64,000 nucleotides of DNA from Candidatus Woesearchaeota archaeon (GCA_964344605.1 CAYFNR010000002.1:2140-66139), one strand, 5' to 3'; counted from the first letter of the stretch, positions 66 to 58,685 are shown. A program made the numbers and translations. Notes: generated by a model not told the origin, from the sequence alone.

Positions 66-527
66 CTATTTTTCGGTTTCACTGGCCGGTACGAACCTTC
101 CAGGCATCCTCATAGGTAGTGGTAGGTTCAAACCTTCAGATATTGGCACCGCTTTACCAAGTCCAACTACAAGTATTCTGTTTTTGATTAGAGCATCTAT
201 TTCTGGATCCATTTTCTTCTTTTTCCAATCTTTTATAATCTTTTTCAGCTCTTTTTCTTCCCCCATTGCTAGAATGGCTCCTTCTACACTTATAGATGAC
301 TTCCCACTGTAATCTGCCTTGAAAATAAAGTCGAAGGCTATGCCTGATTTTTTCTCTCCACCAGGGAAAAGTTCCCGGATCTCAGCGTTTTCAACCCTAA
401 CATCCATATTTATAGTTAAATTAGCGTCAATGTCTCCTTTACGCTCACCCAAAATTCTATCTAACCTGTGACCTACGATTTGCATTGTTTTGGCAATAAT
501 ACGAGTAAGGTTTTTAAAACTTGTCAA
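66..527 (-). CDS. hypothetical protein (153 aa), downstream of Cys-rich surface protein gene
   Basis: Intact ORF overlapping stop of upstream gene by 4 nt (operon-like); no recognisable motifs. Confidence 0.4.
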   Translation of the reverse strand: MTSFKNLTRIIAKTMQIVGHRLDRILGERKGDIDANLTINMDVRVENAEIRELFPGGEKKSGIAFDFIFKADYSGKSSISVEGAILAMGEEKELKKIIKDWKKKKMDPEIDALIKNRILVVGLGKAVPISEGLNLPLPMRMPGRFVPASETEK

Positions 528-1765
528 AATTCTTTCGCTTTTCTGGCGATTCTAATAATGGACCCAAGATAGATTACTACTCCAACTAAAAAGAAGACTA
601 GGATGGTTAAAGCAAGCCTCTGACTTTCCTTCTCTTTTAGCAATATTGTGGAAACACATTTTTTGTCGTCTCCACAAACTTCGCTTTTACATTCATAATC
701 ATTTCCACATACAGAACCTCCTGCTTTTATGGTTTTCCACCCCGAATCAGAACAGTAAAATGTTCCACCAAAACTTAGATTAGAACGCTCCCCAATATTT
801 TCACATACTCTGAACTCTTCCACGCACTCTCCAGCCGAGCAGGTCAGACCAGTTGTACAGCCACAGTCATTTACACAGCTTTCACAAGTTTCAGGATATT
901 CACATTTGTTATCTCCGCACACAACTTGATGTGGACAGTCATTGTCATTTATTTCTGTGCATCCTGGTGGACAGAAGCCATCGTTGAATTTACATTCTGT
1001 TATGTTTGAAAATATACAACTTCTTGGGTTTGCGTCAGTCCCATACCCTGAGCAAGCACCAACTATCCCTCGACTAGTATCGTCGCAGTCGTAGTCATAC
1101 GAGCAAGTGTTGTTTGCTGAACAATCTGAGTCTTTTCCTTCACCAGCCGTGCCGTACTCACAGCCAGATGGGCAGAAATCATCTGCATTTTTACATTCAG
1201 TATTTGGTACGTATTCACATTCTCCTGGATTCCTTGCATCTCCATTGCAAGAGTCAATTGTTCCGGGGTTGTCATCATCACAATCTCTGTCTTTGTAGCA
1301 TGGCTTGTAACAGTCACTATCCATCATCCAGTTACATGTGGTAGGACAACAACCGTCACTGTCAACACAAGCGGTAATGTTTTTGGAATGGTCTTCACAT
1401 GTTCTGGGCCGACCGGAGCATTTGTTAATAGTACATGCATTTCCGTCGTTACAATCTTCATCAGTAGTGCATAAATGCCGCCATTTAGCCGTCATTATTA
1501 TTGTGGCCATTCGCTCATTTGGATCTTGCGCGAAAAAAGTTTCATTTATCGTGACATTGACTCCATCTATTACAGATGAGTCTGAAACGACTCCAGTGGT
1601 ATTGTAATCTATACGGACTAGCACATTGCCGTTGCTAGCTACAGACAACAGCTCAAGAAATCTTGTGTCTGCTTCTATGGTTTCTCCGACTTTAATAGTC
1701 TCTTCAACTGGTGAGAAAGCTGCTACTGTAGGAATTATGAATAGTAGGAGTAGCAGGCGTCGCAT
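524..1765 (-). CDS. secreted cysteine-rich repeat protein with N-terminal signal peptide and C-terminal TM anchor
   Basis: N-term MRRLLLLLFIIPTVAAF hydrophobic signal; ~60 Cys in repeated D-x-D-C / C-x-x-G-C spacing with internal repeats (ECKNADDFCPSGCEY.. / ECKFNDGFCPPGCTE..); C-term hydrophobic helix LALTILVFFLVGVVIYLGSII followed by basic tail. Confidence 0.6.
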   Translation of the reverse strand: MRRLLLLLFIIPTVAAFSPVEETIKVGETIEADTRFLELLSVASNGNVLVRIDYNTTGVVSDSSVIDGVNVTINETFFAQDPNERMATIIMTAKWRHLCTTDEDCNDGNACTINKCSGRPRTCEDHSKNITACVDSDGCCPTTCNWMMDSDCYKPCYKDRDCDDDNPGTIDSCNGDARNPGECEYVPNTECKNADDFCPSGCEYGTAGEGKDSDCSANNTCSYDYDCDDTSRGIVGACSGYGTDANPRSCIFSNITECKFNDGFCPPGCTEINDNDCPHQVVCGDNKCEYPETCESCVNDCGCTTGLTCSAGECVEEFRVCENIGERSNLSFGGTFYCSDSGWKTIKAGGSVCGNDYECKSEVCGDDKKCVSTILLKEKESQRLALTILVFFLVGVVIYLGSIIRIARKAKEF

Positions 1766-19256: not shown

Positions 19257-20498
19257 GTGATATTAATGGATTCAAACGATAATTTATCATTCCAACAACA
19301 AGACTTTGAAAGCGTCGAGGACGACACGACGGAGTCCTTTTCCGAACCGTCTCAGGAGACTGAACCTCAAACAGAGTTCGATTTTAATACTGGTGCGGAC
19401 TTACCAGTTCAACAACCTTCATATTCTGATGAGTCCGAATCTTCTTCACTAAACCCTGCAGATGAAGAGTTAGAGAAGATTTTATCCAAAAAGAGGGCAA
19501 GGATTAAAGTAATCGGGACAGGTGGTGCTGGAAACAATACTGTTTCTAGGATATCTGAAATTGGAGTTGTTGGAGCAGAGACAATAGTGGTAAATACAGA
19601 CGCTCAAGACCTTCTTAACGCCACTTCAGACAAGAAACTTCTTATTGGCAAGGACCTTACTGGTGGTCTTGGAGCGGGATCCGACCCAAAAATAGGTAAA
19701 GAAGCTGCAAAAGAGTCCGAGCAAGACATTAAAAAAATACTCAAAGATGCAAACATGTGCTTTATTACAGCTGGATTGGGAGGCGGAACTGGAACTGGAT
19801 CCATTCCTGTTATTGCGAACATAGCTAAGAAGATGGGTGTTCTTACCGTTGCAATCGTAACTCTTCCTTTTGCTATGGAAGGTAGATTGAGGCATGAAAA
19901 TGCAATAATAGGTCTAGAAGAGCTTGAGGGGGTCGTTGACACTTTGATCGTTATACCTAATGATAAATTGATAGAGCTTGCCCCAGATTTACCTTTACAT
20001 ACAGCCTTTAAAGTTGCAGATGAAATTCTCACAAACGCTGTTAAAGGTATAGCGGAGCTTATCACAAAACCAGGTCTAATCAATTTAGACTTTGCAGACA
20101 TAAAAGCCGTAATGTCCTCCGGCGGAATAGCTATGATTGGAGTTGGAGAATCTGACACCGAGAATCGTGCCGTAGAGTGTGTGGAAAAAGCTTTACAGAA
20201 TCCTCTTTTGGATGTTGAAGTAAGTGGTGCTACAGGTGCTTTGATTAATGTAGTTGGTGGGCCAAGTATGACTTTGGACGAAGCCAAGAAAGTTATAGAG
20301 ACAGTTACAGCTAGACTTGATGACTCTGCAAAGATTATATGGGGGGCTCAACTTTCACCCGATTTACAGAATTCTGTAAGAGCTATGTTGGTGATTGTTG
20401 GAGTTAAATCTTCCCAAATATTTGGACCAAAGCGTACTTTTTCTGACAAACGAAGGGAAGATTTGGCCGATGATTTAGGTATAGACTTCGTTGACTGA
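19257..20498 (+). CDS. ftsZ: cell division GTPase FtsZ with ~75-aa acidic N-terminal extension
   Basis: Tubulin signature GTGGAGNN, GLGGGTGTG, T7 loop; N-terminal D/E/S-rich segment. Confidence 0.9.
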   Translation: MILMDSNDNLSFQQQDFESVEDDTTESFSEPSQETEPQTEFDFNTGADLPVQQPSYSDESESSSLNPADEELEKILSKKRARIKVIGTGGAGNNTVSRISEIGVVGAETIVVNTDAQDLLNATSDKKLLIGKDLTGGLGAGSDPKIGKEAAKESEQDIKKILKDANMCFITAGLGGGTGTGSIPVIANIAKKMGVLTVAIVTLPFAMEGRLRHENAIIGLEELEGVVDTLIVIPNDKLIELAPDLPLHTAFKVADEILTNAVKGIAELITKPGLINLDFADIKAVMSSGGIAMIGVGESDTENRAVECVEKALQNPLLDVEVSGATGALINVVGGPSMTLDEAKKVIETVTARLDDSAKIIWGAQLSPDLQNSVRAMLVIVGVKSSQIFGPKRTFSDKRREDLADDLGIDFVD

Positions 20499-27756: not shown

Positions 27757-28308
27757 TTGATGGGTTTTAAGGGATTGCTAAGGGCTGTTCATCAAGCAAC
27801 GGGCTTAGTTTTCCGCAGAAGGACAAATATACTGACTGCAGCTCTTATTTCAGCAATGATTTTCTTCGTTTTTATTCTTGTAAATTACTTCGCAGAGTTC
27901 CGCTCAGCTTTAGCTGTAACTGGGAGTCCTTTGTTAATATTCAATGTGTTCTGGAGTAGCACAACGTTTCTCCTCTCGGCAGCTGGGTTGCTCAATTTTT
28001 CGGCGGTTGTATTAGTGTCTCTACTTTCAGGCATATCTCTCACCATGGTAATCTATAAATTCCGAAATGCTAAGTCTGCTAGCGGCAAAGGTGGATTTAT
28101 TAGCTCAGCAGGAGTTTTTACAGGAGCATTTGCAGCCTCATGTCCAGCATGCTCTGTTGCCTTAGTGTCAATATTTGGAGTTTCGGGAGGATTGGCGGTT
28201 TTTCCGTTGAAAGGTTTAGAATTTAGCTTACTTTCTTTGACTTTACTTTTATTTTCAATAGTTATGATATCTAAGAGTCTAATATCTTGTGAAGAGTGTA
28301 ACATCTAG
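27757..28308 (+). CDS. hypothetical polytopic membrane protein with C-terminal CxxC...CxxC
   Basis: 4-5 hydrophobic helices; SCPACS and CEEC motifs near C-terminus; stop overlaps herA-like gene stop (convergent). Confidence 0.45.
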   Translation: MMGFKGLLRAVHQATGLVFRRRTNILTAALISAMIFFVFILVNYFAEFRSALAVTGSPLLIFNVFWSSTTFLLSAAGLLNFSAVVLVSLLSGISLTMVIYKFRNAKSASGKGGFISSAGVFTGAFAASCPACSVALVSIFGVSGGLAVFPLKGLEFSLLSLTLLLFSIVMISKSLISCEECNI

Positions 28309-30377
28309 TTTCTTAATTTTAAAGAGTAGCTCATACCATCTATTATTTTTGTCCCCGACGAGCTTTTTATTTTGTAAAAAGGCATATACACAAGTCTCTT
28401 ACCCGTAACTTTGACACCCAAAGATTGTATAAAATTGATTACATTAATATCAGAGATCTTTTGTTTTAGAATGTCAACGTTAGGTAGGTGTAGGAATCTA
28501 GGTCTCTCCATGAAATTAAAGCTACCTAAATCTAGGCTTCCCATCACTGAAGAAACAGTTTTTCCATGTATAGAAATTAGGTTTTGTCTTACGAGTGTAT
28601 TGAGTACAGACTTGACTTCTCCAAATCCCAGCCCTGTTTTAACAAATATGTCTGAAACGCTCACTTGTCCTGTCCTATTCACCAAAACCAGAATCTTCTT
28701 TTGAATAGGAGATAGATTTGTAACAGTATTTGGAATCTTGATGGCCTCTAATTTATCATTTAGCTTGTATACACTAAGATTTACAGTATCTATTACTAGC
28801 TGAAAGACTTTTTCACCGTCCGAACAATTCAGACTTAGACAAGGTCTCAGAACTAAGTTTATATCTTTGACTCTGCTTGTTTCCAATTTTTCTATATCTT
28901 TTTTACTTAGACGTGGTTCAAATGTTAATAAGGTTTTTTCGGCCCGTTCCTTTGGTGTTTTAACTATAGTTGATCTTCTGGGTGTATCTGTTATTTCAAA
29001 AGTCTTAGAACGACCTCCATGCTGAGATCTTCTTACTCTAATATCCACAAAAACAGGGTGATCTGAAGCACCCATAACAAGAGCTTTTCCCGTAGGCAGA
29101 GACTTAATCTCGCGTTCTGTCTCACTAGTTATTCCTTCAAAAGAGTTTGATATAGCACTTAAATCATTTGGATTCGTAACTTGTAAAGCTACTTGACTTG
29201 TACACTGGCTTAGTACACTTTTATCAACCCTGGCTGGCCTTTGAGATATCATACACAAACCCAGTCCAAATTTTCTTCCTTCACTTGCAACAGTCCTAAT
29301 AATTTTAGAAGCTTTAGTTTCGCCAAAGCCCCGGTCTGGACAAAAATTATGTGCTTCTTCGATTATTAAAAAGAAGGGAGGTATATTCTCTCGTTTGCGT
29401 TGTTCGAATAGATTTGATATTATTGTTTGAGCAACAACTTCTTGATTTTCTACGTGGGCCCCCTTGAAATTTATAATAGTTAATTGGCCGGGACGTATTA
29501 AATCCGATACTGGAGTTGGGCTAAAAGAAAACATTCCACTTTTTTCTAAAGCCTGTAGACCTCCAATAAGTTTCCATTTTGCAGGTGATTCGGAGAATTC
29601 AATTTCTTTGATTAGCTCTTTAAAACTAAAATTCTCTTTTCTTTCTAGTATATCATTTACAATATTATACAGCAAGCCTTTTTGAGCAGGACTTACTTTA
29701 AAAGGTAAGGCATCGACTAAGCTAAATGCATTATTTGGAACCTTCAATTTTATTTGAATTGTTTCAGGATTAATTTCGGGATTTAGAGAATACTCACGGA
29801 CATTTTTGGCGAAACCCTTCGAAGTTACATCATAGGTTTTGAAGTATTTTTTGTCTTCGGAATGCTTATTTGGATATCTTATAGAACCATATTCTCCATG
29901 GGCGTCTAATATCACAACTGGAACACCTAATGAAATGAGCTCTTCGAGCAGCACACCAATTGCATAAGATTTTCCAGCACCAGATTTTGCTATTACTGCT
30001 AAATGCTTACTTAGGAGTCTCTTTGGATCAAGAAAGGCTTTAAGATCACTCTTCCCTTCCAATATACCTAAATAAAGTCCATTTGAAGTAAGCCCAAGTG
30101 TTGTTTTGATAGTATCGTTGCCTGCCGTTGAAACTGAAGTCCCAGGTTCAAAAGGTGTTCGAGGTTTTCTCAAAAATCCGCGTTCGGTTCTGTATCCAAT
30201 TATTATACAATCAGCCAAAGTTTCTCCCCCGCTTTTGGTGATTTCAGCAACCTGTGCTAGGACTAGTCCGCTATCTTGGTGCTCTATTGACACATAATCC
30301 CATTTACTAACTTTGCCAGTAACTTTAAATTTGAAAGAATGAGTAGATGTTTTCCCGAATATTTTACCTATAGACAT
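28305..30377 (-). CDS. HerA-family (FtsK/HerA superfamily, DUF87) ATPase with ~220-aa C-terminal extension
   Basis: N-terminal HAS-barrel-like region, Walker A AKSGAGKSYAIG, Walker B FFLIIEEAHNF, HerA-type RKFGLGLCMISQRPARVD..QCTSQVALQVTNPND; extra C-terminal region with wH-like segment. Confidence 0.8.
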   Translation of the reverse strand: MSIGKIFGKTSTHSFKFKVTGKVSKWDYVSIEHQDSGLVLAQVAEITKSGGETLADCIIIGYRTERGFLRKPRTPFEPGTSVSTAGNDTIKTTLGLTSNGLYLGILEGKSDLKAFLDPKRLLSKHLAVIAKSGAGKSYAIGVLLEELISLGVPVVILDAHGEYGSIRYPNKHSEDKKYFKTYDVTSKGFAKNVREYSLNPEINPETIQIKLKVPNNAFSLVDALPFKVSPAQKGLLYNIVNDILERKENFSFKELIKEIEFSESPAKWKLIGGLQALEKSGMFSFSPTPVSDLIRPGQLTIINFKGAHVENQEVVAQTIISNLFEQRKRENIPPFFLIIEEAHNFCPDRGFGETKASKIIRTVASEGRKFGLGLCMISQRPARVDKSVLSQCTSQVALQVTNPNDLSAISNSFEGITSETEREIKSLPTGKALVMGASDHPVFVDIRVRRSQHGGRSKTFEITDTPRRSTIVKTPKERAEKTLLTFEPRLSKKDIEKLETSRVKDINLVLRPCLSLNCSDGEKVFQLVIDTVNLSVYKLNDKLEAIKIPNTVTNLSPIQKKILVLVNRTGQVSVSDIFVKTGLGFGEVKSVLNTLVRQNLISIHGKTVSSVMGSLDLGSFNFMERPRFLHLPNVDILKQKISDINVINFIQSLGVKVTGKRLVYMPFYKIKSSSGTKIIDGMSYSLKLRN

Positions 30378-30433
30378 GCTTAAAAGAAAACTTGGTAGTT
30401 ATATAAAAGAATATAGATTAGAGAGTATAATTT

Positions 30434-31417
30434 CTAAAGCCAGTTTACTTCCACTTGGTCTGTTCTCCACTTACTATTAATTTCCGTATCTTTAACTTTG
30501 TGCTGAATTCCAGACCCATATTTTAATATACCTTGCCAGGCTATCATGGCTCCGTTGTCCATGGCTAGCGAAAATGGGCAGGCAGCAAATTTTATTCCCC
30601 TCTCTTTACACATTACTTTGAGCATTTTCTGGAGTCTTTTGTTCGCAGCTACACCTCCTGTCAAGAGTACTTCTTTTTTGTTGATGTGAGCCACGGCCCT
30701 TTCTGTAGCTTCAGTCATAACTGCAAATACAGTTTCCTGTGCCGAGTGACATAAATCTTCATCTGAATATTTTCCCGAGCGAGCCAGTTGCTCTAGTCTG
30801 GTTTGAATGCCTGAAAATGCAAAATCCATGCCTTTTATGGTGTAGGGAAGTTCAATATATTTTTTTCCCTTGGCCGCAAGTTTTTCGATTTTTGGACCGC
30901 CAGGGAATCCTAAATTAATTGAACGTCCGAAACTATCTAAAAGATTCCCGATCCCAATATCTAATGTTTCTCCAAATATTCTATATCTGCCTCCAGCATA
31001 GGCGATAATTTGGGTGTTGGCCCCAGATACATACAAAGTTACTGGATCTTTTAGCTCTGTTTTTAGTTTCCCAATCTCTATATGGGCAACGCAGTGGTTT
31101 ACGCCAACGAGTGGCTTGTTGACCACCCGGGAAATGGATCTGGCAGCCGCAGCTCCCACTCGAAGACACCCTCCCAAGCCGGGTCCCTGCGAGAAAGATA
31201 CTAAGTCTATGTCCTCTAAATCGATTTCTGCACTTTCTAAAGCGCGTTTTAGGACAAAATCATACATGAGTAGATGATGCTCAACAGCCTTGCGGGGATG
31301 AATCCCACCTTTTTCTGTTGTAAATGTGCTTTTCTCATTAGCCAGAATTTCACCTTTACTATCAACAATTCCTATGCTTAAAGTGTGCGCTGTGCTTTCT
31401 ATCCCTAAGCAGATCAT
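30434..31417 (-). CDS. kae1: tRNA N6-threonylcarbamoyladenosine synthase Kae1 (standalone, not fused to Bud32)
   Basis: MICLGIESTAHTLSIGIV.. ASKHA-fold with metal-binding H-x-x-H (VNHCVAHIE) and conserved C-terminal GGVAAN. Confidence 0.9.
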   Translation of the reverse strand: MICLGIESTAHTLSIGIVDSKGEILANEKSTFTTEKGGIHPRKAVEHHLLMYDFVLKRALESAEIDLEDIDLVSFSQGPGLGGCLRVGAAAARSISRVVNKPLVGVNHCVAHIEIGKLKTELKDPVTLYVSGANTQIIAYAGGRYRIFGETLDIGIGNLLDSFGRSINLGFPGGPKIEKLAAKGKKYIELPYTIKGMDFAFSGIQTRLEQLARSGKYSDEDLCHSAQETVFAVMTEATERAVAHINKKEVLLTGGVAANKRLQKMLKVMCKERGIKFAACPFSLAMDNGAMIAWQGILKYGSGIQHKVKDTEINSKWRTDQVEVNWL

Positions 31418-50382: not shown

Positions 50383-51540
50383 ATGACCAAAAATTATAGA
50401 CATGACCCTGTTGCAGCAGTAATTCTTCTTACAATACTTGCTGCCTTATTCTTCTACATATTTTCGGTTCCGACCGAAGTGAGAGAAGAGCTCTTGCCAT
50501 CAACGGTAACTTACGAAAATACATGGCTCACATCTTCTCCAGGGGGAGTCCCAATCCAAAAAGCCGAAATTGATTTTAAGCTCGTAACTTTTCCAACAAC
50601 TACTGTAGACAACACTCTAAAAGCGGAACCCACTCTACTCTCAAACCAATTTTCAGTTTCATCTGGAGTATATAGTGCTGTACCACAAGCTTTCAGCTTT
50701 AACATTGATGATACTGCTGCTGTGTATGATGTCAGAGTGCCCTTGACCGTAGCCGGCAAAAGCGGCTCAGGAAGGCTGGAGGCTTCTTTAAACGGACAGA
50801 AAATATATTCCGCAAGCAATGTCATTGGAGAGCAAGCGGTAATCATAATCCCAACACATTTGTTGCAAACTGGGGCAAATTCCTTAACCTTTTCAGCAAG
50901 TTCACCAGGATTTAAGTTTTGGCAGAGCAATTCCTATGTGTTATCTAGCGCCACAATAGAGATAAGTAGATACAGTTCCAATCAGGCTTCTGTAGCGAGA
51001 CCATTTTCCTTGTCGAGCGATGAGGCAGCAAATATTGAAAGCTCCGAGCTTACTATGTTCGTCCGTAGATTGTCGACTGTGTCCACTAATTTAGAAGTAG
51101 GGTTGAATGGAGCTACTTTGTTTAGCGGAATCCCTCCTTCAACATTCTCCGTTGATGTTCCAACAAATTTGCTCAAATCTGGGCAGAATGATATAACTTT
51201 CAGTGTCGACGAGGAAGGCAAATACGAGATGAATTTCATTGTAATCCGAATACAAACTGAAACAATTAAAGGAGGGTTAGATTATTTCTTCACTATAAGC
51301 TCCTCTGATTGGAGAAGGGTACAGGGCGGAGCCTATACTTGTGAAATGCTTATTAGAAAAACCACGGGGGCCAATAGCGTAGTTGTCCAGCTAAATTCCC
51401 ATACAGGAGAGTACCATTTTTCTGCAGGAGAAGTTAAAGTTGATGTCTGCGAACAGCTCAGAGAAGGATCAAACAAGATAAGCATAACTTCTGATGAAGC
51501 GCTTGATTTGGCAGATATTAGTGTTGGAATAAAACCTTAG
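50383..51540 (+). CDS. hypothetical N-terminally anchored extracellular protein with two internal repeats
   Basis: N-term TM VAAVILLTILAALFFYIFSV; Ser/Thr-rich beta-like ectodomain; repeats LNGQKIYSASNVIGEQAVIIIPTHLLQTGANSLTFSASS / LNGATLFSGIPPSTFSVDVPTNLLKSGQNDITFSVDEEG. Confidence 0.55.
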   Translation: MTKNYRHDPVAAVILLTILAALFFYIFSVPTEVREELLPSTVTYENTWLTSSPGGVPIQKAEIDFKLVTFPTTTVDNTLKAEPTLLSNQFSVSSGVYSAVPQAFSFNIDDTAAVYDVRVPLTVAGKSGSGRLEASLNGQKIYSASNVIGEQAVIIIPTHLLQTGANSLTFSASSPGFKFWQSNSYVLSSATIEISRYSSNQASVARPFSLSSDEAANIESSELTMFVRRLSTVSTNLEVGLNGATLFSGIPPSTFSVDVPTNLLKSGQNDITFSVDEEGKYEMNFIVIRIQTETIKGGLDYFFTISSSDWRRVQGGAYTCEMLIRKTTGANSVVVQLNSHTGEYHFSAGEVKVDVCEQLREGSNKISITSDEALDLADISVGIKP

Positions 51541-51541
51541 A

Positions 51542-53296
51542 ATGGTTGATTATAGCCACCTAGGGGGAGTTGGTACAAAAACAAATGCTCTCTTAGAAGG
51601 CCACAGTCATGAAGATATACATGAAGGAGGACATGATTTTCTTAGAGATTTAGGTATTAATCATGGACCGAGGAGGGAGGCAATTCTCACGGAGGCTGAG
51701 AGAAATGTGGTAGCGGGACCAGCAGCACCTGCTGAGCCACCAGCTCAACCTCCAGCAGTGCCAGCAGGATCAGCACCTCCCCCAATAAGGATGCCACCGC
51801 CAGCAAGATCGCCACTTGGCCCAATACCTGCAGACTTAGACGCTGAGGGAGAAGGGAAAAATAAAGTTATAAAGTTCTTTGGAATGGTTGTCACCTTGGT
51901 GCTTATTTTCTTAGTTTCTAGTTTTGTATTAGGTCCAGGATGGGCTGTATTGATTGTTGGCATAGTAGCTTTCATTTTTATTTTTATATATTTTTTAGGT
52001 AAAAAGAAAGGCAAGGTTGACTGGGCAATATTTATTATTTTGCTTATTATCTTAGTTGTTGGTGGGTTGTGGGTAGGAAATAATATTGCTAAGTCCACTA
52101 CTGGCAAAGGCCTCTGGGAGTTGGGCTCTGAGGCTTTGTTTGCTATTGAATTGGGCCGTGAAGAAACAAGTCCGCAGCGCAATACCCTAGCTGCCCTTTT
52201 TAAAGGTGAGTGGGATCTAGATCAGCAAAAATGGGAGTCCAGACAGGTCCAAGATAGTTATGTCGTTCCTGAAGATGCAGGGGTTGTGTTTGAGGATATC
52301 GCTCCTTCACAGAGCAACTTTTTCTCCGACGAGATTCTTGAAGTTACGGGAGATGTTACTATAGTGAGTCTTTTTGAAGATGGGCAAGATATAGAAATAA
52401 CCACTCCCTTAGAGATTGACGTTGAGATTCAAAGATGCAAAAGTGCCTTGAGCGAAGGACTTATTGGGCGAGCATTTGATGAATTTTCAGAACTTTTCGG
52501 TGGAAGGATAGCTATGACTGACTGGTGTGGAAAGTCCTGGACATGCGAGATACCTGGAGAAGACCCAGTTAGTGACAACAAATTTGAGGTCGACAAGGCA
52601 TATAACAGGTTCTTTGCGTGTGAGCATTCAGGAATAACTACGTCAGAAAATATTATTGATTTAAATGCTAAAGTTGTTTGGGATTATACTACACAGGCTG
52701 TTTCAGGCAAGCAGGTATTTGTGGCGAGCCCAGACGCGCTGGCTCGCATAGAGGACCTTAGGACCCATTATAATATACCAAGTACAGCATTTGACCCTTG
52801 GTCTATTAGTGATGGTACAGTGAATTTTGGTGTAGGTTTTGATAAAAAATGGGAATTTTTGAGGGCAGGTTCAAAGTACCGGCTAGGAGTTAGTGTTGTT
52901 AATGATGGCAGAGGTGATGTTGTGGAGATAAATGATTTAGAAGTTAGCATACCTCACGATGAAGATATCATCATGATTTCAAGTGATAAGGAAGAGATTA
53001 GGAATAAGGCTGATATAGGAAAGGAGTCAGGACAGTTCGTTTTTGACAGGATAGATGAAGTAAATGGTACAGTCCCCGTTAAAGTCTTTAAACTCAAAGG
53101 TCTACCTCTTAATCTTAAGGATGGAAAAGAAGAGATAGAACCAGGTTTCTCCAATACTTATTATCTCAAACTAACTATAAATGAAGATTACTTGCAAGGA
53201 TCAAATTATCAAAGCTTCTTTACGAAGGCCAAGATTTCTTACGACTATGAACAAGGTAAAAGGACAAGAATAAAGATCAAACCAGAACCTTTTTGA
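51542..53296 (+). CDS. hypothetical membrane protein: His/Pro-rich cytoplasmic N-terminus, 3 TM, large extracellular domain
   Basis: HSHEDIHEGGHDF then PAAPAEPPAQPPAVPAGSAPPPIRMPPPARSPLGP; three hydrophobic helices; ~370-aa C-terminal domain with paired Cys. Confidence 0.55.
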   Translation: MVDYSHLGGVGTKTNALLEGHSHEDIHEGGHDFLRDLGINHGPRREAILTEAERNVVAGPAAPAEPPAQPPAVPAGSAPPPIRMPPPARSPLGPIPADLDAEGEGKNKVIKFFGMVVTLVLIFLVSSFVLGPGWAVLIVGIVAFIFIFIYFLGKKKGKVDWAIFIILLIILVVGGLWVGNNIAKSTTGKGLWELGSEALFAIELGREETSPQRNTLAALFKGEWDLDQQKWESRQVQDSYVVPEDAGVVFEDIAPSQSNFFSDEILEVTGDVTIVSLFEDGQDIEITTPLEIDVEIQRCKSALSEGLIGRAFDEFSELFGGRIAMTDWCGKSWTCEIPGEDPVSDNKFEVDKAYNRFFACEHSGITTSENIIDLNAKVVWDYTTQAVSGKQVFVASPDALARIEDLRTHYNIPSTAFDPWSISDGTVNFGVGFDKKWEFLRAGSKYRLGVSVVNDGRGDVVEINDLEVSIPHDEDIIMISSDKEEIRNKADIGKESGQFVFDRIDEVNGTVPVKVFKLKGLPLNLKDGKEEIEPGFSNTYYLKLTINEDYLQGSNYQSFFTKAKISYDYEQGKRTRIKIKPEPF

Positions 53297-53343
53297 CCAA
53301 AGCATAAAGTATAAAAACGAGCAACTGCTTTTCATACTTAAAC

Positions 53344-54342
53344 ATGCTGTCGTTTGATAGATTAAAATCTACTTTACTCCCTTTTTTAATTGTAGCCGTT
53401 GTTTTAGTTAGTGGATGTGTAAATCAAACGGCTGACGAAGGAGTAGTTCCTACAGGGATGGAGGGAATAGTTGTGACTTTTTTTCAAGGAGCACCGCCCT
53501 CTGTTTTGGGGGAAGGTGAGACTTTTGACGCTGGAGTGACCATTGAGAATAAAGGTGATCATGAAGTGGTTGTTGGAGATGCGGAGATATATCTTAGAGG
53601 GGTCAATCCTACAAACTTCGGATATGGGGGTGTTGGTCAGATACCAGCTAATCAGCAAGTACTTTCTAATCTAGTGGGAGCACAGTTGTTGGATAATCAA
53701 CTTATTGGTGGACAGGATGCTTTGACTTGGCCAGACCTGTGTTATCGTGTTGATTTAAATACAGATCAAGTTGTCGATTTCATAGCGCAGAGCTGCTACA
53801 AATATAAAAGTAAAGCTCGTTTTGACGGTTGCTTCAACGAAAATGCGTACAGACAAACAACGGGCACCGAGCTCTGTTCGGTTTTAGGTGATAAATTAAT
53901 TTCAAATAGTAGGGCGCCAGTCCAAATTACAAGCGTGTCCGAAAGCCCGGCCGGAGAAGGAAAGTTTAGGTTTATAGTGAAAGTTGGGAACCTAGGTACA
54001 GGTCAAGTCTATACTGAAGATTTAGGAACAGCTTGTGTTGACGCGGCAATTAGAGAACTAAATGTGGTGCACATAGATGGAATTAAAATTGGTGCAACTT
54101 CTCTTGATTTGGGAGACACAGCCACAGTTACATCTGCCACGTGGCTTGGGACGCAGAAGCCATATTTTAAGCTTGTAAATGGAGAGGGACAGTTCATGTT
54201 TACATATGCTCCATCATTTACAGCTGTGCCTATTTACATAGATCCTGTGGAAATAACTCTGAGTTATGGGTACTCTGACCAGGTAATTACCTCAACTCAG
54301 ATTTCATCTATACCTGGAGTGAACCCCCAATCTGTATGTTAA
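53344..54342 (+). CDS. hypothetical secreted protein, putative lipoprotein (lipobox LVSGC)
   Basis: Signal-like N-term ending VVLVSGCVNQT; paralogue of next gene. Confidence 0.55.
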   Translation: MLSFDRLKSTLLPFLIVAVVLVSGCVNQTADEGVVPTGMEGIVVTFFQGAPPSVLGEGETFDAGVTIENKGDHEVVVGDAEIYLRGVNPTNFGYGGVGQIPANQQVLSNLVGAQLLDNQLIGGQDALTWPDLCYRVDLNTDQVVDFIAQSCYKYKSKARFDGCFNENAYRQTTGTELCSVLGDKLISNSRAPVQITSVSESPAGEGKFRFIVKVGNLGTGQVYTEDLGTACVDAAIRELNVVHIDGIKIGATSLDLGDTATVTSATWLGTQKPYFKLVNGEGQFMFTYAPSFTAVPIYIDPVEITLSYGYSDQVITSTQISSIPGVNPQSVC

Positions 54343-54380
54343 TCCAATAAATATATATTCTAACTACGTGTACGTTCTGT

Positions 54381-55331
54381 ATGAGATTTAGGTCTTTGCT
54401 CATATTTTCTTTGATTGTCTTAGTTAGCGGATGCTTAGGACAGACTCCTGAAGAAACACTATCAACTGGACAGTTTATTGGAGGAGATAAGGGTCTTGAG
54501 CTTTCTTATGTTGAACTCCCTCCCAGAGTTTTTCAAAATACTCCATTTGAAATAGATGTAATGGCCGTTAATGAAGGTGAGACAGACATTCCTGTAGGTG
54601 TAGCTACATTCAAACTTAGCAATTCTAGAGTTTTTGGTCTGACTGAAGAAGAAGCTGTTAAGATAAATGAAGAGTCTCTTGCAAAGGCGGCTGAGTTTGG
54701 TGGCTTTGGAGGACAGACTTTCATAACCTTCGAAGTTCCAGGATATTCGGGAGGTGTTTTAAGTACGGAGTCTCCAGTTCCAATATCTATAGATGCTTGT
54801 TATCCTTATGAAACTAATGCGGTTGTAGATATATGTATTGCGCGCAGCGATTTTTCTGAAGTTTGTACTCCTTCCGAAATAAAAAATACACAAAATAGCG
54901 GATCTCCAATACATGTTTCTGAGGTTGAGCAAGTTCTTAGTTTACTAATACTCGAAAAAGTTAGAATTGGAATTATTATAAGAGTGGAAATTAAAGGGGA
55001 ACTAACAGACAGAATCTATAGCACAGCAGTAGAGGGAGTCGCTGAGGGTACTACTTGTGGTGAAAGAAACTCTCAATTTGAAAATCAGATTTCTATCCAA
55101 GATATTAGAATAGGAAGTGCAACCCCTTACACAGCTCAGGAAATAGAAAGTTCATGTGGTTCAAGTATTATAGGTTTGAATGCTGAAGGTAAGGGAAGAG
55201 TCCAGTGTAATTTCGAGATTAAAGATTATGTTTCAGGTGCAGGAGATTATGTCGAAAGAATGACAATAAAACTTGGATATCTTCACTCAACCTTGGCAAA
55301 CACAAACATAAATATAATACCTGTTGAGTAA
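54381..55331 (+). CDS. hypothetical secreted protein, putative lipoprotein (lipobox LVSGC), paralogue of 53344 gene
   Basis: N-term LIFSLIVLVSGCLGQT; shared blocks with upstream protein (..DICIARSDFSEVC vs ..FIAQSCYKYK; GSPIHVSEVEQ vs RAPVQITSVSE; KVRIGIIIRVEIKG vs KFRFIVKVGNLG). Confidence 0.55.
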   Translation: MRFRSLLIFSLIVLVSGCLGQTPEETLSTGQFIGGDKGLELSYVELPPRVFQNTPFEIDVMAVNEGETDIPVGVATFKLSNSRVFGLTEEEAVKINEESLAKAAEFGGFGGQTFITFEVPGYSGGVLSTESPVPISIDACYPYETNAVVDICIARSDFSEVCTPSEIKNTQNSGSPIHVSEVEQVLSLLILEKVRIGIIIRVEIKGELTDRIYSTAVEGVAEGTTCGERNSQFENQISIQDIRIGSATPYTAQEIESSCGSSIIGLNAEGKGRVQCNFEIKDYVSGAGDYVERMTIKLGYLHSTLANTNINIIPVE

Positions 55332-57724: not shown

Positions 57725-58015
57725 TTATACTTGAGTTACTTTCTTTAGTCTGCCGTAACTTTTGACAGTAGATTTTTTACATGTGCTGCAAGTGAAAAGC
57801 AAAGTTGGGTGTGTGCTGGTTTTATATTTGTCTCCGGCTTTGGGTCTTGGAGAACCCCCATAACCTTTAGATATGCGAAACATCTGCCGAACTCCGTGCT
57901 TCAACCCGCCTTTTTTAGTTTTAGGCCTGGATTTGGTCTTCACTTGTTTGATTTGCTGGAGTGTGTGTTTCTTGCACTTCTGGCAATATGTCTTCGCTTG
58001 TTTTGGAAATTTCAT
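57725..58015 (-). CDS. rpl44e: ribosomal protein L44e
   Basis: MKFPKQAKTYCQKCKKHT.. C4 zinc ribbon (CQKC..CSTC), 96 aa. Confidence 0.8.
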   Translation of the reverse strand: MKFPKQAKTYCQKCKKHTLQQIKQVKTKSRPKTKKGGLKHGVRQMFRISKGYGGSPRPKAGDKYKTSTHPTLLFTCSTCKKSTVKSYGRLKKVTQV

Positions 58016-58685
58016 CTTTTTCTTCGTTGCTATCCTCTGATTTTACTAATTCGACTTTATTTTTGCTCATTAAAAGGTTTGCGATTCCTTCCGGAAGCTC
58101 TGCTTCCTCACTGACGGAATATGGACCATAGCTTTTTAAGTCTTCGGCTACGAAGGACTCGACTCCTTCCAAGAATCTGACTTTTACTGTCTTAATTGGT
58201 TCAGCAACGTCATCTGGTTCCAAACTCTCAACTGGTGTTGGTTCTTCTTCCTCAATTTTTGGGTCGGCGATGGAATCTTGCCCAGGTTCCAAAAGTTTGA
58301 AAAATGCGTCTCGATTTTGAGGTATTATTTGTGTTAACAGATTATAAAATTCTATTTCGTGAGTAAGCATATTTGTAGTGTCTTTAACCAAAGTTCCCCC
58401 ACGAACACTGAAAACTGCTCTGCTTATTATCTTCTTTTCACGAAATTCATATAAATCTTTGAGTGCTCTTAAGGCATTATCTATCTCTATTTGAATAACT
58501 ACTCTCTTTTGGGAGCTAAAAATCTGTGTAGACTCTTCCTGCTTGTCTAGAAGTCTTTGCTTATCTTGTAGGTATTTGCTTATCTTGCTTAAATCTTCGT
58601 TGCTTATACTCTGAAGCTCTGAGTTGAATTTTTCAGAGTGCAGCATATCATAAATATTGTCATATGTGAAGACTTCATCTGTCAT
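57921..58685 (-). CDS. GINS subunit Gins15 (Gins51)-like protein with acidic C-terminal tail
   Basis: Helical A-domain followed by B-domain motif VKVRFLEGVESFVAEDLKSYGPYSVSEEAELPEGIANLLMSKNKVELV; adjacent to primase gene as in many archaea; 3' 95 nt overlap rpl44e in another frame. Confidence 0.5.
   Translation of the reverse strand: MTDEVFTYDNIYDMLHSEKFNSELQSISNEDLSKISKYLQDKQRLLDKQEESTQIFSSQKRVVIQIEIDNALRALKDLYEFREKKIISRAVFSVRGGTLVKDTTNMLTHEIEFYNLLTQIIPQNRDAFFKLLEPGQDSIADPKIEEEEPTPVESLEPDDVAEPIKTVKVRFLEGVESFVAEDLKSYGPYSVSEEAELPEGIANLLMSKNKVELVKSEDSNEEKDEISKTSEDILPEVQETHTPANQTSEDQIQA

What the first reader, a model, noticed from the sequence alone, without database searches (positions are those of the whole stretch)
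28305..30377. Standalone HerA-family ATPase with a ~220-aa C-terminal extension and no NurA/Mre11/Rad50 neighbours
The HAS-barrel, Walker A/B and HerA-specific motifs are intact, but the usual archaeal herA-nurA-mre11-rad50 operon is absent. The neighbours are kae1 upstream and a convergent CxxC membrane protein. The C-terminal third is an extra, possibly winged-helix-containing region. Standalone HerA-like ATPases also occur in anti-phage defence and DNA-translocation systems, so the function is open.
Basis: partly seen in the sequence, partly recalled or inferred. Interest (0 to 1): 0.6.

Follow-up and report, generated by a model that had tools for sequence, protein, structure and literature searches.

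The report
DPANN HerA-like ATPase with winged-helix tail
This is a real, conserved housekeeping gene for a ring-type DNA-pumping ATPase related to the archaeal repair helicase HerA, but it belongs to a separate, uncharacterised pan-archaeal branch and carries a private winged-helix tail, which makes it a testable candidate for the missing archaeal counterpart of the bacterial division-site DNA pump FtsK.

Summary
ORF 28305-30377 (-) encodes a 690-aa protein made of a HAS-barrel, a HerA/FtsK-type ATPase with intact motifs, a disordered ~25-aa linker and a ~210-aa folded C-terminal module. No NurA, Mre11 or Rad50 gene lies in the 64-kb window or within 10 kb of about 85 related genes.

The module is a beta-rich domain with an inserted MarR/TrmB-like winged helix. 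It has no other structural match and occurs only at the C-end of this protein family, in Nanoarchaeota/Woesearchaeota, Aenigmatarchaeota and Nanohaloarchaea.

The gene is housekeeping, not defence. It keeps synteny with kae1 and the L1-L10-L12 ribosomal genes, and its homologs carry inteins at five or more sites.

The ATPase core is 36-48% identical to a pan-archaeal clade, against about 20% to the solved repair HerAs. Of 120 homologs of the euryarchaeal branch (~500-600 aa), 118 replace the module with a flexible linker ending in a MinD-like amphipathic, basic motif.

A 2026 preprint reports a Haloferax HerA-domain protein at midcell. I could not test whether it belongs to this clade.

Best reading, inferred only: a hexameric dsDNA translocase whose C-terminal module is a targeting device, working like FtsK or SftA. 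A repair HerA with an unlinked NurA is not excluded.

The parts
28305..30377 (-). Complete ORF of the HerA-like ATPase (690 aa plus stop codon)
   Evidence: ORF list. An identical protein is on public contigs. Full-length AF2 model has pLDDT 89.7.
30400..30407 (-). TATA-box-like TTTATATA about 26 nt upstream of the ATG. It suggests an own promoter and a leaderless or short-leader mRNA.
   Evidence: Read directly from the sequence. Function is inferred, not tested.
30123..30377 (-). N-terminal HAS-barrel (residues 1-85)
   Evidence: AF2 predicts six strands at pLDDT >90. Pfam HAS-barrel E=0.017, below the family cut-off. Foldseek aligns about 506 columns to S. solfataricus HerA 4d2i.
29016..30122 (-). 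HerA/FtsK-type RecA-like ATPase core with a four-helix insertion (residues 86-454)
   Evidence: Pfam DUF87 8e-31 and HerA_C. PDB sequence hits to 9x1l and 4d2i. Foldseek 4d2i E=1e-32, TM 0.78.
29967..29990 (-). Walker A / P-loop, AKSGAGKS (residues 130-137). Homologs carry inteins after K136.
   Evidence: G133, G135 and K136 are invariant in 113 sequences. The loop aligns to the S. solfataricus HerA P-loop. Intein junctions.
29355..29372 (-). Walker B, FLIIEE (residues 336-341)
   Evidence: E341 is invariant. It aligns to IEEAH of S. solfataricus and T. kodakarensis HerA.
29235..29282 (-). EGRKFG...SQRP block (residues 366-381). R368 is the candidate arginine finger and Q379 the candidate sensor-1 at the end of strand 372-378.
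   Evidence: E366, G367, R368, K369, F370, G371, Q379 and R380 are invariant. Strand position. The clade definition is quoted from PMC10853773.
28941..29015 (-). Flexible linker (residues 455-479)
   Evidence: pLDDT is below 50 for most of it (fragment residues 1-24 = 455-478; residues 464-479). Conservation is lowest here and length varies from 13 to 61 aa among homologs.
28734..28940 (-). N-terminal flank of the C-terminal module (residues 480-548): strand, helix, long beta-hairpin, two more strands
   Evidence: AF2 module model has pLDDT 87 and pTM 0.77. No PDB or BFVD match. L510 and P512 are conserved.
28542..28733 (-). Winged helix-turn-helix (residues 549-612), inserted between the two beta flanks
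   Evidence: Foldseek matches to MarR, ArsR, IclR, Sso10a and AspA over 55-77 residues. Profile against PDB: CheF C-terminal domain 2e-5, MarR about 1e-3. Pfam TrmB or MarR hits in some members. The wHTH is absent in the 604-637-aa variants L035, L042, L053, L067 and L070.
28308..28541 (-). C-terminal flank of the module (residues 613-690): strand, helix, long beta-hairpin
   Evidence: AF2. It aligns in register with the N flank, but only at P=0.026.
30434..31417 (-). Upstream neighbour kae1/tsaD (t6A synthesis). This is syntenic context, not a demonstrated partner.
   Evidence: Pfam TsaD 1e-79. Adjacency is kept in L004 and L005. Sua5 lies near the gene in ANME-1 and Bathyarchaeia loci.
27757..28308 (+). 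Convergent 183-aa membrane protein with CPAC and CEEC motifs. Its 3' end overlaps the ATPase gene by 4 nt. It is not a conserved neighbour.
   Evidence: ORF list. Gene callers disagree here. Homologs in L035 and L053 are not adjacent to the ATPase gene. The downstream gene in L004 is different.

Best explanation
The gene encodes a housekeeping ring ATPase of the HerA/FtsK superfamily that most likely forms a hexamer and pumps double-stranded DNA through its central pore.

It is not the NurA-coupled repair HerA. It is the DPANN form of a separate, uncharacterised HerA-like clade found across archaea. In that clade the motor is always followed by a flexible linker and then a lineage-specific C-terminal device.
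- Euryarchaeal members, and also Hydrothermarchaeota, Bathyarchaeia and Altiarchaeales, end in a short amphipathic, basic motif that resembles the MinD membrane-targeting sequence.
- Some Thermoplasmatota carry a Cys-rich motif instead.
- DPANN members, including this window, carry a folded ~210-aa beta domain with an inserted winged helix.

I infer that the C-terminal module is a tethered targeting or loading device that binds DNA or a partner protein, one copy per subunit on a flexible leash. I also infer that the enzyme acts on the chromosome during segregation or division, working like FtsK or the soluble B. subtilis translocase SftA.

Shown here: the fold, the intact catalytic motifs, the module anatomy and its restriction to this family, the housekeeping context, the absence of linked repair or defence partners, and the alternative tails.

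Inferred only: hexamer formation, DNA pumping, what the winged helix binds, and the role in division.
For: Fold and motifs.

Not a repair equivalog. NCBIfam scores are 130 bits against a cut-off of 970, and 110 against 800. Identity to S. solfataricus and T. kodakarensis HerA is about 20%. The same is true of the euryarchaeal relatives.

No NurA, Mre11 or Rad50 in the window or in 87 related loci. No neighbour family occurs in more than 10 of 80 loci. As a control, haloarchaeal plasmid HerAs sit in Mre11-Rad50-NurA-x-HerA operons.

Housekeeping character: conserved synteny with kae1 and L1-L10-L12, and inteins at five or more conserved sites in homologs.

Module: a confident fold. Only the winged helix matches known structures. 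It is found in only 298 clusters out of 1.84 billion; the strongest matches place the whole module at the C-end of this family or in short fragments, and the weaker multi-stretch hits match only the winged helix. The module has no invariant polar residue, so it is non-catalytic. Its net charge is positive.

Pan-archaeal clade: 36-48% core identity. 118 of 120 euryarchaeal members end in a hydrophobic-hydrophobic-x-x-[LIMVF]-F-[GST] motif followed by basic residues, after a charged linker of about 45 aa. None of the 120 DPANN members has it.

Literature. The H. volcanii HerA-domain protein HVO_1301 cross-links to the divisome protein CdpB1 and localises to midcell (bioRxiv 10.64898/2026.07.16.738847). 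An archaeal FtsK analogue is an acknowledged gap, with HerA as the proposed candidate (PMC2958812). SftA is a soluble FtsK-type translocase recruited to the Z-ring by SepF (PMC9320952).
Against: There are no experimental data for any member of this clade.

I could not obtain the HVO_1301 sequence, so its membership is untested. Its deletion had only minor effects.

The winged helix shows no specific similarity to FtsK gamma; none appears in the top 50 Foldseek hits. Its recognition helix is not strongly basic and carries a conserved Glu, so DNA binding is not assured.

The closest solved structures are repair HerAs. NurA-linked haloarchaeal HerAs are 27-33% identical to a Methanocellaceae member of the euryarchaeal branch, so the two groups are not far apart.

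ftsZ lies within 10 kb only in close relatives and in one other locus, L060, which is no enrichment.

NurA could be encoded elsewhere in the genome.

The MinD-like reading of the euryarchaeal tail rests on motif resemblance recalled from memory. A PIP-like or other peptide-motif reading is possible.
Confidence: 0.4

Rival explanations
1. It is the lineage's double-strand-break repair HerA. It resects DNA ends together with a NurA nuclease and Mre11-Rad50 that are encoded elsewhere in the genome, and the winged-helix module is a lineage-specific DNA-end or partner-binding add-on.
For: The best structural and sequence matches are repair HerAs: 4d2i and the T. kodakarensis HerA-NurA complex 9x1m. 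The top partial NCBIfam hits are the repair equivalogs. NurA-linked haloarchaeal HerAs share 27-33% identity with a Methanocellaceae member of the euryarchaeal branch. herA and nurA are known to be unlinked from mre11-rad50 in some archaea (established knowledge). One submitter named a relative 'repair helicase HerA'.
Against: No nurA lies within 10 kb in any of about 85 loci across many phyla, whereas herA-nurA linkage was immediate in both control loci. Scores are 7-8 times below the equivalog cut-offs. The conserved membrane-targeting-like tail in the euryarchaeal branch has no role in the repair model. H. volcanii was reported to lack apparent HerA and NurA (PMC2700283), yet it has a HerA-domain protein at midcell.
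Confidence: 0.25
2. It is a housekeeping HerA-type motor with another cellular role, neither division nor end resection. Examples are DNA uptake or export (Ced-like), nucleoid or replication-fork remodelling, or a link to t6A/KEOPS-associated genome maintenance. In this reading the winged helix recruits it to specific DNA or RNA.
For: Partial hits to the DNA-translocating ATPases CedD and CedB are comparable to the hits on repair HerA. The gene recurs next to t6A genes: kae1 in the window, kae1-sua5 in L004, and sua5-S8e-gene in ANME-1 and Bathyarchaeia. Archaeal KEOPS has been discussed in relation to recombination repair (PMC10989989, seen). DPANN cells depend on hosts, so DNA or nucleotide acquisition is plausible (inference).
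Against: No membrane channel or Ced partner genes are nearby. The t6A adjacency is seen in only a minority of loci and among other translation genes. No data point to any specific alternative.
Confidence: 0.25
3. It is the ATPase of an anti-phage defence system or of a mobile element: a Sir2-HerA or DUF4297-HerA-like system, a 'HerA/FtsK capture' system, or a viral packaging or conjugation ATPase.
For: PADLOC HerA models hit the C-terminal half of the ATPase (best 1.8e-42). PHROG hits include an unknown family and a terminase-like family. HerA/FtsK plus wHTH combinations are known in defence systems (PMC10853773).
Against: All these hits are partial motor-domain matches. No effector, recombinase or capsid genes are adjacent in about 85 loci. 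The gene keeps stable synteny with ribosomal-protein genes. It is broadly and apparently vertically distributed. GC content is uniform across the region. NCBIfam anti-phage equivalogs score 96-99 bits against cut-offs of 800-850.
Confidence: 0.03

Closest known systems
Archaeal repair helicase/translocase HerA (S. solfataricus 4d2i; T. kodakarensis HerA-NurA 9x1l/9x1m)
   Same: Same three-part core: HAS-barrel, RecA-like ATPase with a helical insertion, and the same Walker A, Walker B, Arg-finger and sensor motifs. Best Foldseek match has E=1e-32 and TM 0.78. The expected hexameric dsDNA-translocase mechanism follows by homology.
   Different: Only about 20% identical. Far below the NCBIfam equivalog cut-offs. 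No linked nurA/mre11/rad50. It carries a 235-aa linker plus beta-wHTH-beta module that the solved repair HerA chains (458-592 residues) are too short to contain, and it belongs to a separate pan-archaeal clade.
Uncharacterised pan-archaeal HerA-like clade (for example Methanocella conradii 'ATP-binding protein', ANME-1, ANME-2, Methanoperedens, Hydrothermarchaeota, Altiarchaeales; ~490-600 aa)
   Same: 36-48% identity over the whole core, residues 1-457. Also standalone among housekeeping genes. Also not HerA equivalogs. Same layout of motor, flexible linker and C-terminal device.
   Different: Instead of the folded module, these proteins end in a conserved amphipathic, basic motif such as GLFKKVFGSGK or SLYHKMFGSRKK. 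It is present in 118 of 120 of them and in none of 120 DPANN members.
Bacterial FtsK/SpoIIIE and soluble SftA (division-site DNA translocases)
   Same: Same ATPase superfamily. Same logic of a ring motor, a flexible linker and a terminal winged helix (FtsK gamma) or a recruitment element. SftA is soluble and is recruited to the Z-ring (PMC9320952). The euryarchaeal relatives appear to be membrane-tethered.
   Different: No FtsK alpha/beta domain match beyond a weak PHROG hit (2e-4). The winged helix is embedded in a beta domain and shows no specific similarity to FtsK gamma. There is no transmembrane anchor. The resemblance is functional analogy only.
Haloferax volcanii HVO_1301 (D4GXE5, DUF87/HerA-domain protein, 588 aa)
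   Same: A non-canonical HerA-domain protein in an archaeon reported to lack HerA and NurA. It cross-links to the divisome protein CdpB1 and localises to midcell. Its length fits a core plus a tail of about 115 aa.
   Different: I could not obtain its sequence, so orthology is untested. Haloarchaea also have NurA-linked DUF87 paralogs. Its deletion phenotype is minor.
MarR/TrmB/ArsR-type winged helix-turn-helix domains
   Same: Residues ~555-610 form three helices plus a beta wing. Foldseek probability is 1.0 with rmsd 1.4-4 A over 55-77 residues. Profile hits to the CheF C-terminal domain and MarR. Pfam TrmB or MarR hits in some members.
   Different: It is not a free-standing dimeric regulator. 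It is inserted in a novel beta domain at the end of an ATPase. The recognition helix is weakly basic, and the domain can be missing in some family members.

Membership tests
HerA/FtsK superfamily of P-loop pumping ATPases (HerA clade) | Walker A (GxxGxGKS/T) and Walker B (hhhhD/EE) motifs intact | tested here: met
   AKSGAGKS at 130-137 and FLIIEE at 336-341. G133, G135, K136 and E341 are invariant in 113 sequences. Both motifs align to those of S. solfataricus and T. kodakarensis HerA.
HerA/FtsK superfamily of P-loop pumping ATPases (HerA clade) | Gln sensor-1 at the end of core strand 4, with an arginine finger just upstream (definition quoted from PMC10853773) | tested here: met
   Predicted strand 372-378 is followed by invariant Q379. 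Invariant R368 lies in EGRKFG just upstream. The assignment rests on sequence and a predicted structure, not on experiment.
HerA/FtsK superfamily of P-loop pumping ATPases (HerA clade) | N-terminal HAS-barrel and helical insertion in the RecA fold | tested here: met
   AF2 predicts a beta-barrel at residues 1-84 and a four-helix insertion at 217-280, at pLDDT >90. Foldseek aligns about 506 columns to 4d2i with TM 0.78. Pfam HAS-barrel reaches only E=0.017.
HerA/FtsK superfamily of P-loop pumping ATPases (HerA clade) | Hexameric ring that translocates dsDNA | not testable with these tools
   Only monomer predictions were possible. This is inferred from homology.
Repair HerA (HerA-NurA end-resection helicase) | Equivalog-level similarity (NCBIfam NF040819 / NF040937 cut-offs) | tested here: not met
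   130 bits against 970, and 110 bits against 800. About 20% identity to the solved repair HerAs.
Repair HerA (HerA-NurA end-resection helicase) | Gene linkage with nurA (and often mre11-rad50) | tested here: not met
   None in the 64-kb window. None within 7-10 kb in 87 related loci. The positive control operons were detected.
Repair HerA (HerA-NurA end-resection helicase) | NurA encoded in the same genome and binding the HAS-barrel face | not testable with these tools
No interaction test was possible.
Anti-phage HerA systems (Sir2-HerA, DUF4297-HerA and related) | Adjacent effector gene and equivalog-level similarity | tested here: not met
   Neighbours are kae1, ribosomal-protein and tRNA-synthetase genes. 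NF042943 and NF042944 score 96-99 bits against cut-offs of 800-850. PADLOC hits cover only part of the motor.
FtsK/SpoIIIE | FtsK alpha/beta motor domains and the gamma winged helix that reads KOPS | tested here: not met
   No Pfam FtsK_SpoIIIE hit. Only a weak PHROG FtsK-like hit at 2e-4. FtsK gamma is not among the top 50 Foldseek matches of the module. The analogy concerns architecture, not membership.
Winged helix-turn-helix (MarR/TrmB-like) | Three-helix bundle with a beta-hairpin wing | tested here: met
   AF2 helices 557-569, 574-581 and 585-597, and strands 601-604 and 607-610. Foldseek matches to MarR, ArsR, IclR and Sso10a. Profile against PDB gives 2e-5. Pfam TrmB in 6 of 32 members, best 1e-7.
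Winged helix-turn-helix (MarR/TrmB-like) | Binds DNA | not testable with these tools
   Indirect evidence only: median net charge is +3, with conserved K561, K580, R597 and K606, but also conserved E587 in the recognition helix.

The most novel reading that the evidence does not exclude
This protein and its euryarchaeal relatives together are the long-sought archaeal functional counterpart of FtsK: a HerA-type chromosome pump stationed at the division site. In most archaea it would be held at the membrane by a MinD-like C-terminal amphipathic helix. In DPANN archaea that tail has been swapped for a private beta-plus-winged-helix module that reads DNA or docks on a division or segregation partner. 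The module fusion would also be a rare shared character linking Nanoarchaeota, Aenigmatarchaeota and Nanohaloarchaeota, but not Altiarchaeota.
Probability: 0.25. Interest if true: 0.85.

Novelty: new variant of a known kind. Interest (0 to 1): 0.6.

Why it matters
Archaea that divide with FtsZ have no FtsK. What clears or resolves DNA at the closing septum has been open since HerA was proposed as the candidate in 2004 (background in PMC2958812).

The canonical HerA turned out to be a repair enzyme. This work delineates a different, widely conserved, NurA-unlinked HerA-like clade whose C-termini look like localisation devices. That fits a 2026 report of a HerA-domain protein at the Haloferax division site.

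The question therefore becomes directly testable in cultivable organisms such as Methanocella, Methanosarcinales relatives and possibly Haloferax.

For DPANN biology, it adds a conserved, intein-prone core gene of unknown role, with a previously undescribed domain that is shared by several DPANN phyla.

Tried and rejected
- Iyer et al. 2004 is not held in the library.

HVO_1301
- I tried to get its sequence or gene neighbours from the preprint supplement. Only the accession (D4GXE5) and the length (588 aa) were retrievable; the primer tables are truncated.
- A search with a relative labelled 'Halobacteriales' (L074) returned Thermoplasmatota-like proteins, not haloarchaea.
- A tblastn of plasmids gave only NurA-linked haloarchaeal paralogs at 27-33% identity. 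These served as a control but not as a bridge to HVO_1301.

Tests with weak or negative results
- Internal duplication of the two beta flanks: hhalign aligns them in register, but only at P=0.026 with 1.9% probability. This is suggestive only.
- Enrichment of ftsZ, MCM, kae1 or L1 near family members: none beyond close relatives.
- The convergent CxxC membrane protein as a partner: rejected, because it is not a conserved neighbour.
- A catalytic (nuclease) role for the extension: rejected, because the module has no invariant polar residue.
- Literature searches for NurA, Mre11 and Rad50 content of DPANN genomes gave nothing usable.
Full report
OBSERVATION

The ORF at 28305-30377 (-) is real and encodes 690 aa. 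The identical protein is present on several public metagenome contigs. More than 2700 database proteins match at E<=1e-5, and about 110 of the listed hits are full-length at 38-74% identity. Where the source names them, they come from Woesearchaeota, Nanoarchaeota or the DHVE6 group.

The window itself is an archaeal, DPANN-like core-genome segment of about 38% GC with uniform composition. It holds MCM, RFC, TBP, IleRS, FtsZ, Spt5, L11, AlaRS, L12/L10/L1, Kae1, UppS, deoxyhypusine synthase, SRP54/FtsY, Pelota, a fused PriS-PriL primase, GINS and PolX.

A TATA-like TTTATATA box lies about 26 nt upstream of the ATG, in the 56-nt gap after kae1. This suggests the gene has its own promoter.

THE MOTOR

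Pfam finds DUF87/HerA-central (8e-31) and HerA_C; the HAS-barrel hit is sub-threshold. The full-length AlphaFold2 model, built on 113 sequences, is confident (pLDDT 89.7). It shows:
- an N-terminal beta-barrel, residues 1-84;
- a RecA-like core with a four-helix insertion;
- a disordered segment, residues 464-479;
- a separate C-terminal body.

Foldseek places the model closest to S. solfataricus HerA (4d2i; E=1e-32, TM 0.78) and to T. kodakarensis HerA in the HerA-NurA complex (9x1m). The anti-phage HerAs come next. All matches are at about 14-20% identity.

Walker A (AKSGAGKS, 130-137), Walker B (FLIIEE, 336-341), R368 and Q379 are invariant across the family. They fit the HerA/FtsK signature of a Gln sensor at the end of strand 4 with an Arg finger just upstream (definition quoted). 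Membership in the HerA/FtsK superfamily is therefore met.

Membership in any named HerA family is not met. NCBIfam equivalogs for repair HerA score 130 bits against a cut-off of 970, and 110 against 800. The anti-phage HerA models score 96-99 against 800-850, and CedD scores 67 against 600.

THE EXTENSION

Residues 455-479 form a poorly conserved linker of variable length (13-61 aa) and low confidence.

Residues 480-690 fold confidently when modelled alone (pLDDT 87, pTM 0.77). The order of elements is:
- a strand, a helix, a long hairpin and two more strands (482-547);
- a three-helix winged helix with a beta wing (557-610);
- a strand, a helix and a long hairpin (627-680).

Only the winged helix matches known structures. 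Foldseek hits MarR, ArsR, IclR, Sso10a and AspA over 55-77 residues, and no whole-module match reaches E<1e-3 in the PDB or BFVD. A profile of the module hits the CheF C-terminal winged helix at 2e-5 and MarR proteins at about 1e-3. Pfam TrmB or MarR models hit 6 and 4 of 32 members, and nothing hits the flanks.

An exhaustive profile search of 1.84 billion representative proteins finds only 298 clusters at E<=1e-3. The strongest matches place the whole module at the C-end of ~600-720-aa proteins, of ~1060-1340-aa versions, or in short fragments. The weaker multi-stretch hits in other proteins match only the winged-helix part.

The long versions carry insertions of about 380-690 residues. These sit after K136 of the P-loop and near residues 343-346, 365, 375 and 387. 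Two of them have Pfam intein domains.

The module has no invariant polar residue: only P512 is invariant, and L510, S556, F585 and L595 are nearly so. It is therefore not an enzyme. Its net charge is positive, but the recognition helix is only weakly basic.

Some Woesearchaeota members of 604-637 aa keep both beta flanks and lack the winged helix. The winged helix therefore looks like an insertion into a beta domain formed by the two flanks. The two flanks align in register, but only at P=0.026.

CONTEXT

Relatives at 52% identity keep the block DS-kae1-(sua5)-gene-x-L1-L10-L12-DUF7121...L11-Spt5-FtsZ. More distant members sit among other housekeeping genes.

In 80 loci from GTDB species genomes, no neighbour family occurs in more than 10 loci. 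The recurring neighbours are Cbf5, S19e, L31e, AspRS, S8e, Sua5 and diphthine synthase.

phmmer with haloarchaeal NurA and Rad50 finds nothing in the window or in any locus. Pfam on the unassigned window ORFs finds no repair genes.

As a positive control, haloarchaeal plasmid DUF87 genes sit in metallophosphoesterase-SMC-NurA-x-DUF87 operons. These genes are 27-33% identical to a Methanocellaceae member of the euryarchaeal branch.

The convergent CxxC membrane protein is real but is not a conserved neighbour.

The defence reading is therefore not supported. The repair reading is weakened, but it is not excluded, because whole genomes could not be scanned.

A WIDER CLADE

The genome scan showed that the core, residues 1-457, is 36-48% identical to proteins from many archaeal lineages.
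- The module is detectable in Nanoarchaeota/Woesearchaeota, in Aenigmatarchaeota (about 1e-17) and in Nanohaloarchaea (1e-8 to 1e-11).
- Members from Hydrothermarchaeota, ANME-1, Syntrophoarchaeum, Methanoperedens, Methanocellaceae, Bathyarchaeia and Altiarchaeales are only ~490-600 aa long.
- These shorter members are also not HerA equivalogs.

In place of the module, the shorter members have a charged, low-complexity linker (median about 45 aa) that ends in a strikingly conserved motif. Examples are KGLLSRLFGRG, GLFKKVFGSGK and SLYHKMFGSRKK. The motif is present in 118 of 120 homologs of the Methanocellaceae member and in none of 120 DPANN members.

From memory, this is nearly the E. coli MinD membrane-targeting sequence (KGFLKRLFGG). 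The hydrophobic moments are similar. A PIP-like or other peptide-motif reading cannot be excluded.

Several relatives labelled Thermoplasmatota or Thermoplasmata, one Thermoplasmatota-like relative labelled 'Halobacteriales' (L074), and the unnamed homolog P0346 instead end in a Cys-rich C-x6-7-C-x2-C-x5-C motif.

The common plan is thus a motor, a leash and a lineage-specific terminal device.

LITERATURE

A July 2026 preprint found that the H. volcanii DUF87/HerA-domain protein HVO_1301 (588 aa) cross-links to the divisome protein CdpB1 and localises to midcell. Its deletion has only minor effects.

H. volcanii was earlier reported to lack apparent HerA and NurA.

Cortez et al. noted that archaea may use an FtsK-KOPS-like mechanism and that HerA had been proposed as the analogue.

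B. subtilis SftA shows that a soluble FtsK-type motor can be recruited to the Z-ring.

I could not obtain the HVO_1301 sequence. The link to this clade is a lead, not a result.

INTERPRETATION

Most likely (about 0.4), the window gene is the DPANN form of a housekeeping HerA-type dsDNA translocase whose C-terminal module targets or loads the ring. It would work like FtsK or SftA in chromosome segregation or clearance.

Rivals:
- a repair HerA with an unlinked NurA (about 0.25);
- another housekeeping DNA-handling role, such as Ced-like transport or a KEOPS/t6A-linked function (about 0.25);
- defence or a mobile element (about 0.03).

The fold, motifs, module anatomy, distribution and context are shown here. 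Oligomeric state, substrate, the ligand of the winged helix and the cellular role are inferred.

NOVELTY AND SCORE

This is a new variant of a known kind: a HerA/FtsK-superfamily motor with a previously undescribed, family-private C-terminal domain, inside an uncharacterised pan-archaeal clade.

Interest is 0.6. The window gene alone is a conserved hypothetical protein with a clear fold. The clade-level pattern, however, makes a long-standing question about an archaeal FtsK analogue directly testable.

Noticed in passing
Related loci L051, L054, L057, L059, L061, L062, L064, L065, L068, L069, L072, L073, L076, L079, L081, L083, L085, L087; proteins P0388-P0507: The ~490-600-aa relatives outside DPANN end in a conserved amphipathic, basic C-terminal motif (for example GLFKKVFGSGK, KGLLSRLFGRG) after a charged linker of about 45 aa. 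The motif is present in 118 of 120 proteins and closely resembles the MinD membrane-targeting sequence.
   Followed up: partly
Homologs P0055, P0094, P0121, P0125, P0128, P0130, P0132-P0134, P0136, P0139, P0142, P0158, P0162, P0169: About 15 family representatives are 1058-1339 aa long because of insertions of about 380-690 residues. These sit after K136 of the P-loop and near residues 343-346, 365, 375 and 387 of the window protein. Two of them have Pfam intein and LAGLIDADG domains. The gene is a multi-site intein host.
   Followed up: partly
L056, L063, L074 (C-terminal tails); protein P0346: Relatives labelled Thermoplasmatota or Thermoplasmata (L056, L063), one Thermoplasmatota-like relative labelled 'Halobacteriales' (L074) and the unnamed homolog P0346 carry long Pro/Glu-rich tails ending in a Cys motif, C-x6-7-C-x2-C-x5-C. 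From memory, this resembles the iron-sulfur cluster loop of endonuclease III-type DNA glycosylases.
   Followed up: no
L035, L042, L053, L067, L070: Some Woesearchaeota-type members (593-637 aa) keep both beta flanks of the C-terminal module but lack the winged helix. The winged helix therefore appears to be an insertion into a beta domain.
   Followed up: partly
window 30434-31417; L004 8414-9945; L065, L076, L083, L085: The gene recurs next to t6A-synthesis genes: kae1 in the window, kae1-sua5 in a 52%-identical relative, and sua5-S8e-gene-aspS in ANME-1, Bathyarchaeia and Methanobacteriota loci.
   Followed up: partly
window 27757-28308 (+) versus 28053-28304 (-): Public gene calls disagree downstream of the ATPase gene. 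One calls an 83-aa same-strand ORF; another calls the convergent 182/183-aa membrane protein with CPAC and CEEC motifs. The membrane protein has homologs in L035 and L053, so it is the more credible call.
   Followed up: partly
window 58742-59995 (-): A 417-aa protein matches both the small and the large DNA primase subunits in Pfam. It is a fused PriS-PriL primase, as known from Nanoarchaeum-like genomes (from memory). A Gins51-like gene (57921-58685) and a PolX-PHP gene (60028-61752) lie next to it.
   Followed up: no
window 50383-55331 (+): Four consecutive genes encode 316-584-aa proteins with N-terminal hydrophobic segments. The two that were scanned (50383-51540 and 51542-53296) have essentially no Pfam match. 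This may be a surface or secreted protein cluster.
   Followed up: no
window 524-1765 (-): A 413-aa Cys-rich protein with a signal-like N-terminus, a C-terminal membrane anchor and no Pfam hit.
   Followed up: no
L060 7858-12034: In one Nanoarchaeota genome, ftsZ lies two genes upstream of the HerA-like gene on the same strand. In the window, ftsZ (19257-20498) is about 8 kb away. There is no general enrichment.
   Followed up: yes
L088 and L089 (haloarchaeal plasmids CP002989.1 and NZ_CP119991.1): Both plasmids carry repair operons annotated SMC-domain protein (Rad50-like), NurA, hypothetical protein, DUF87/ATP-binding protein (HerA-like). In L088 a metallophosphoesterase gene (Mre11-like) lies directly upstream. 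A conserved ~195-233-aa unknown gene sits between nurA and herA.
   Followed up: no
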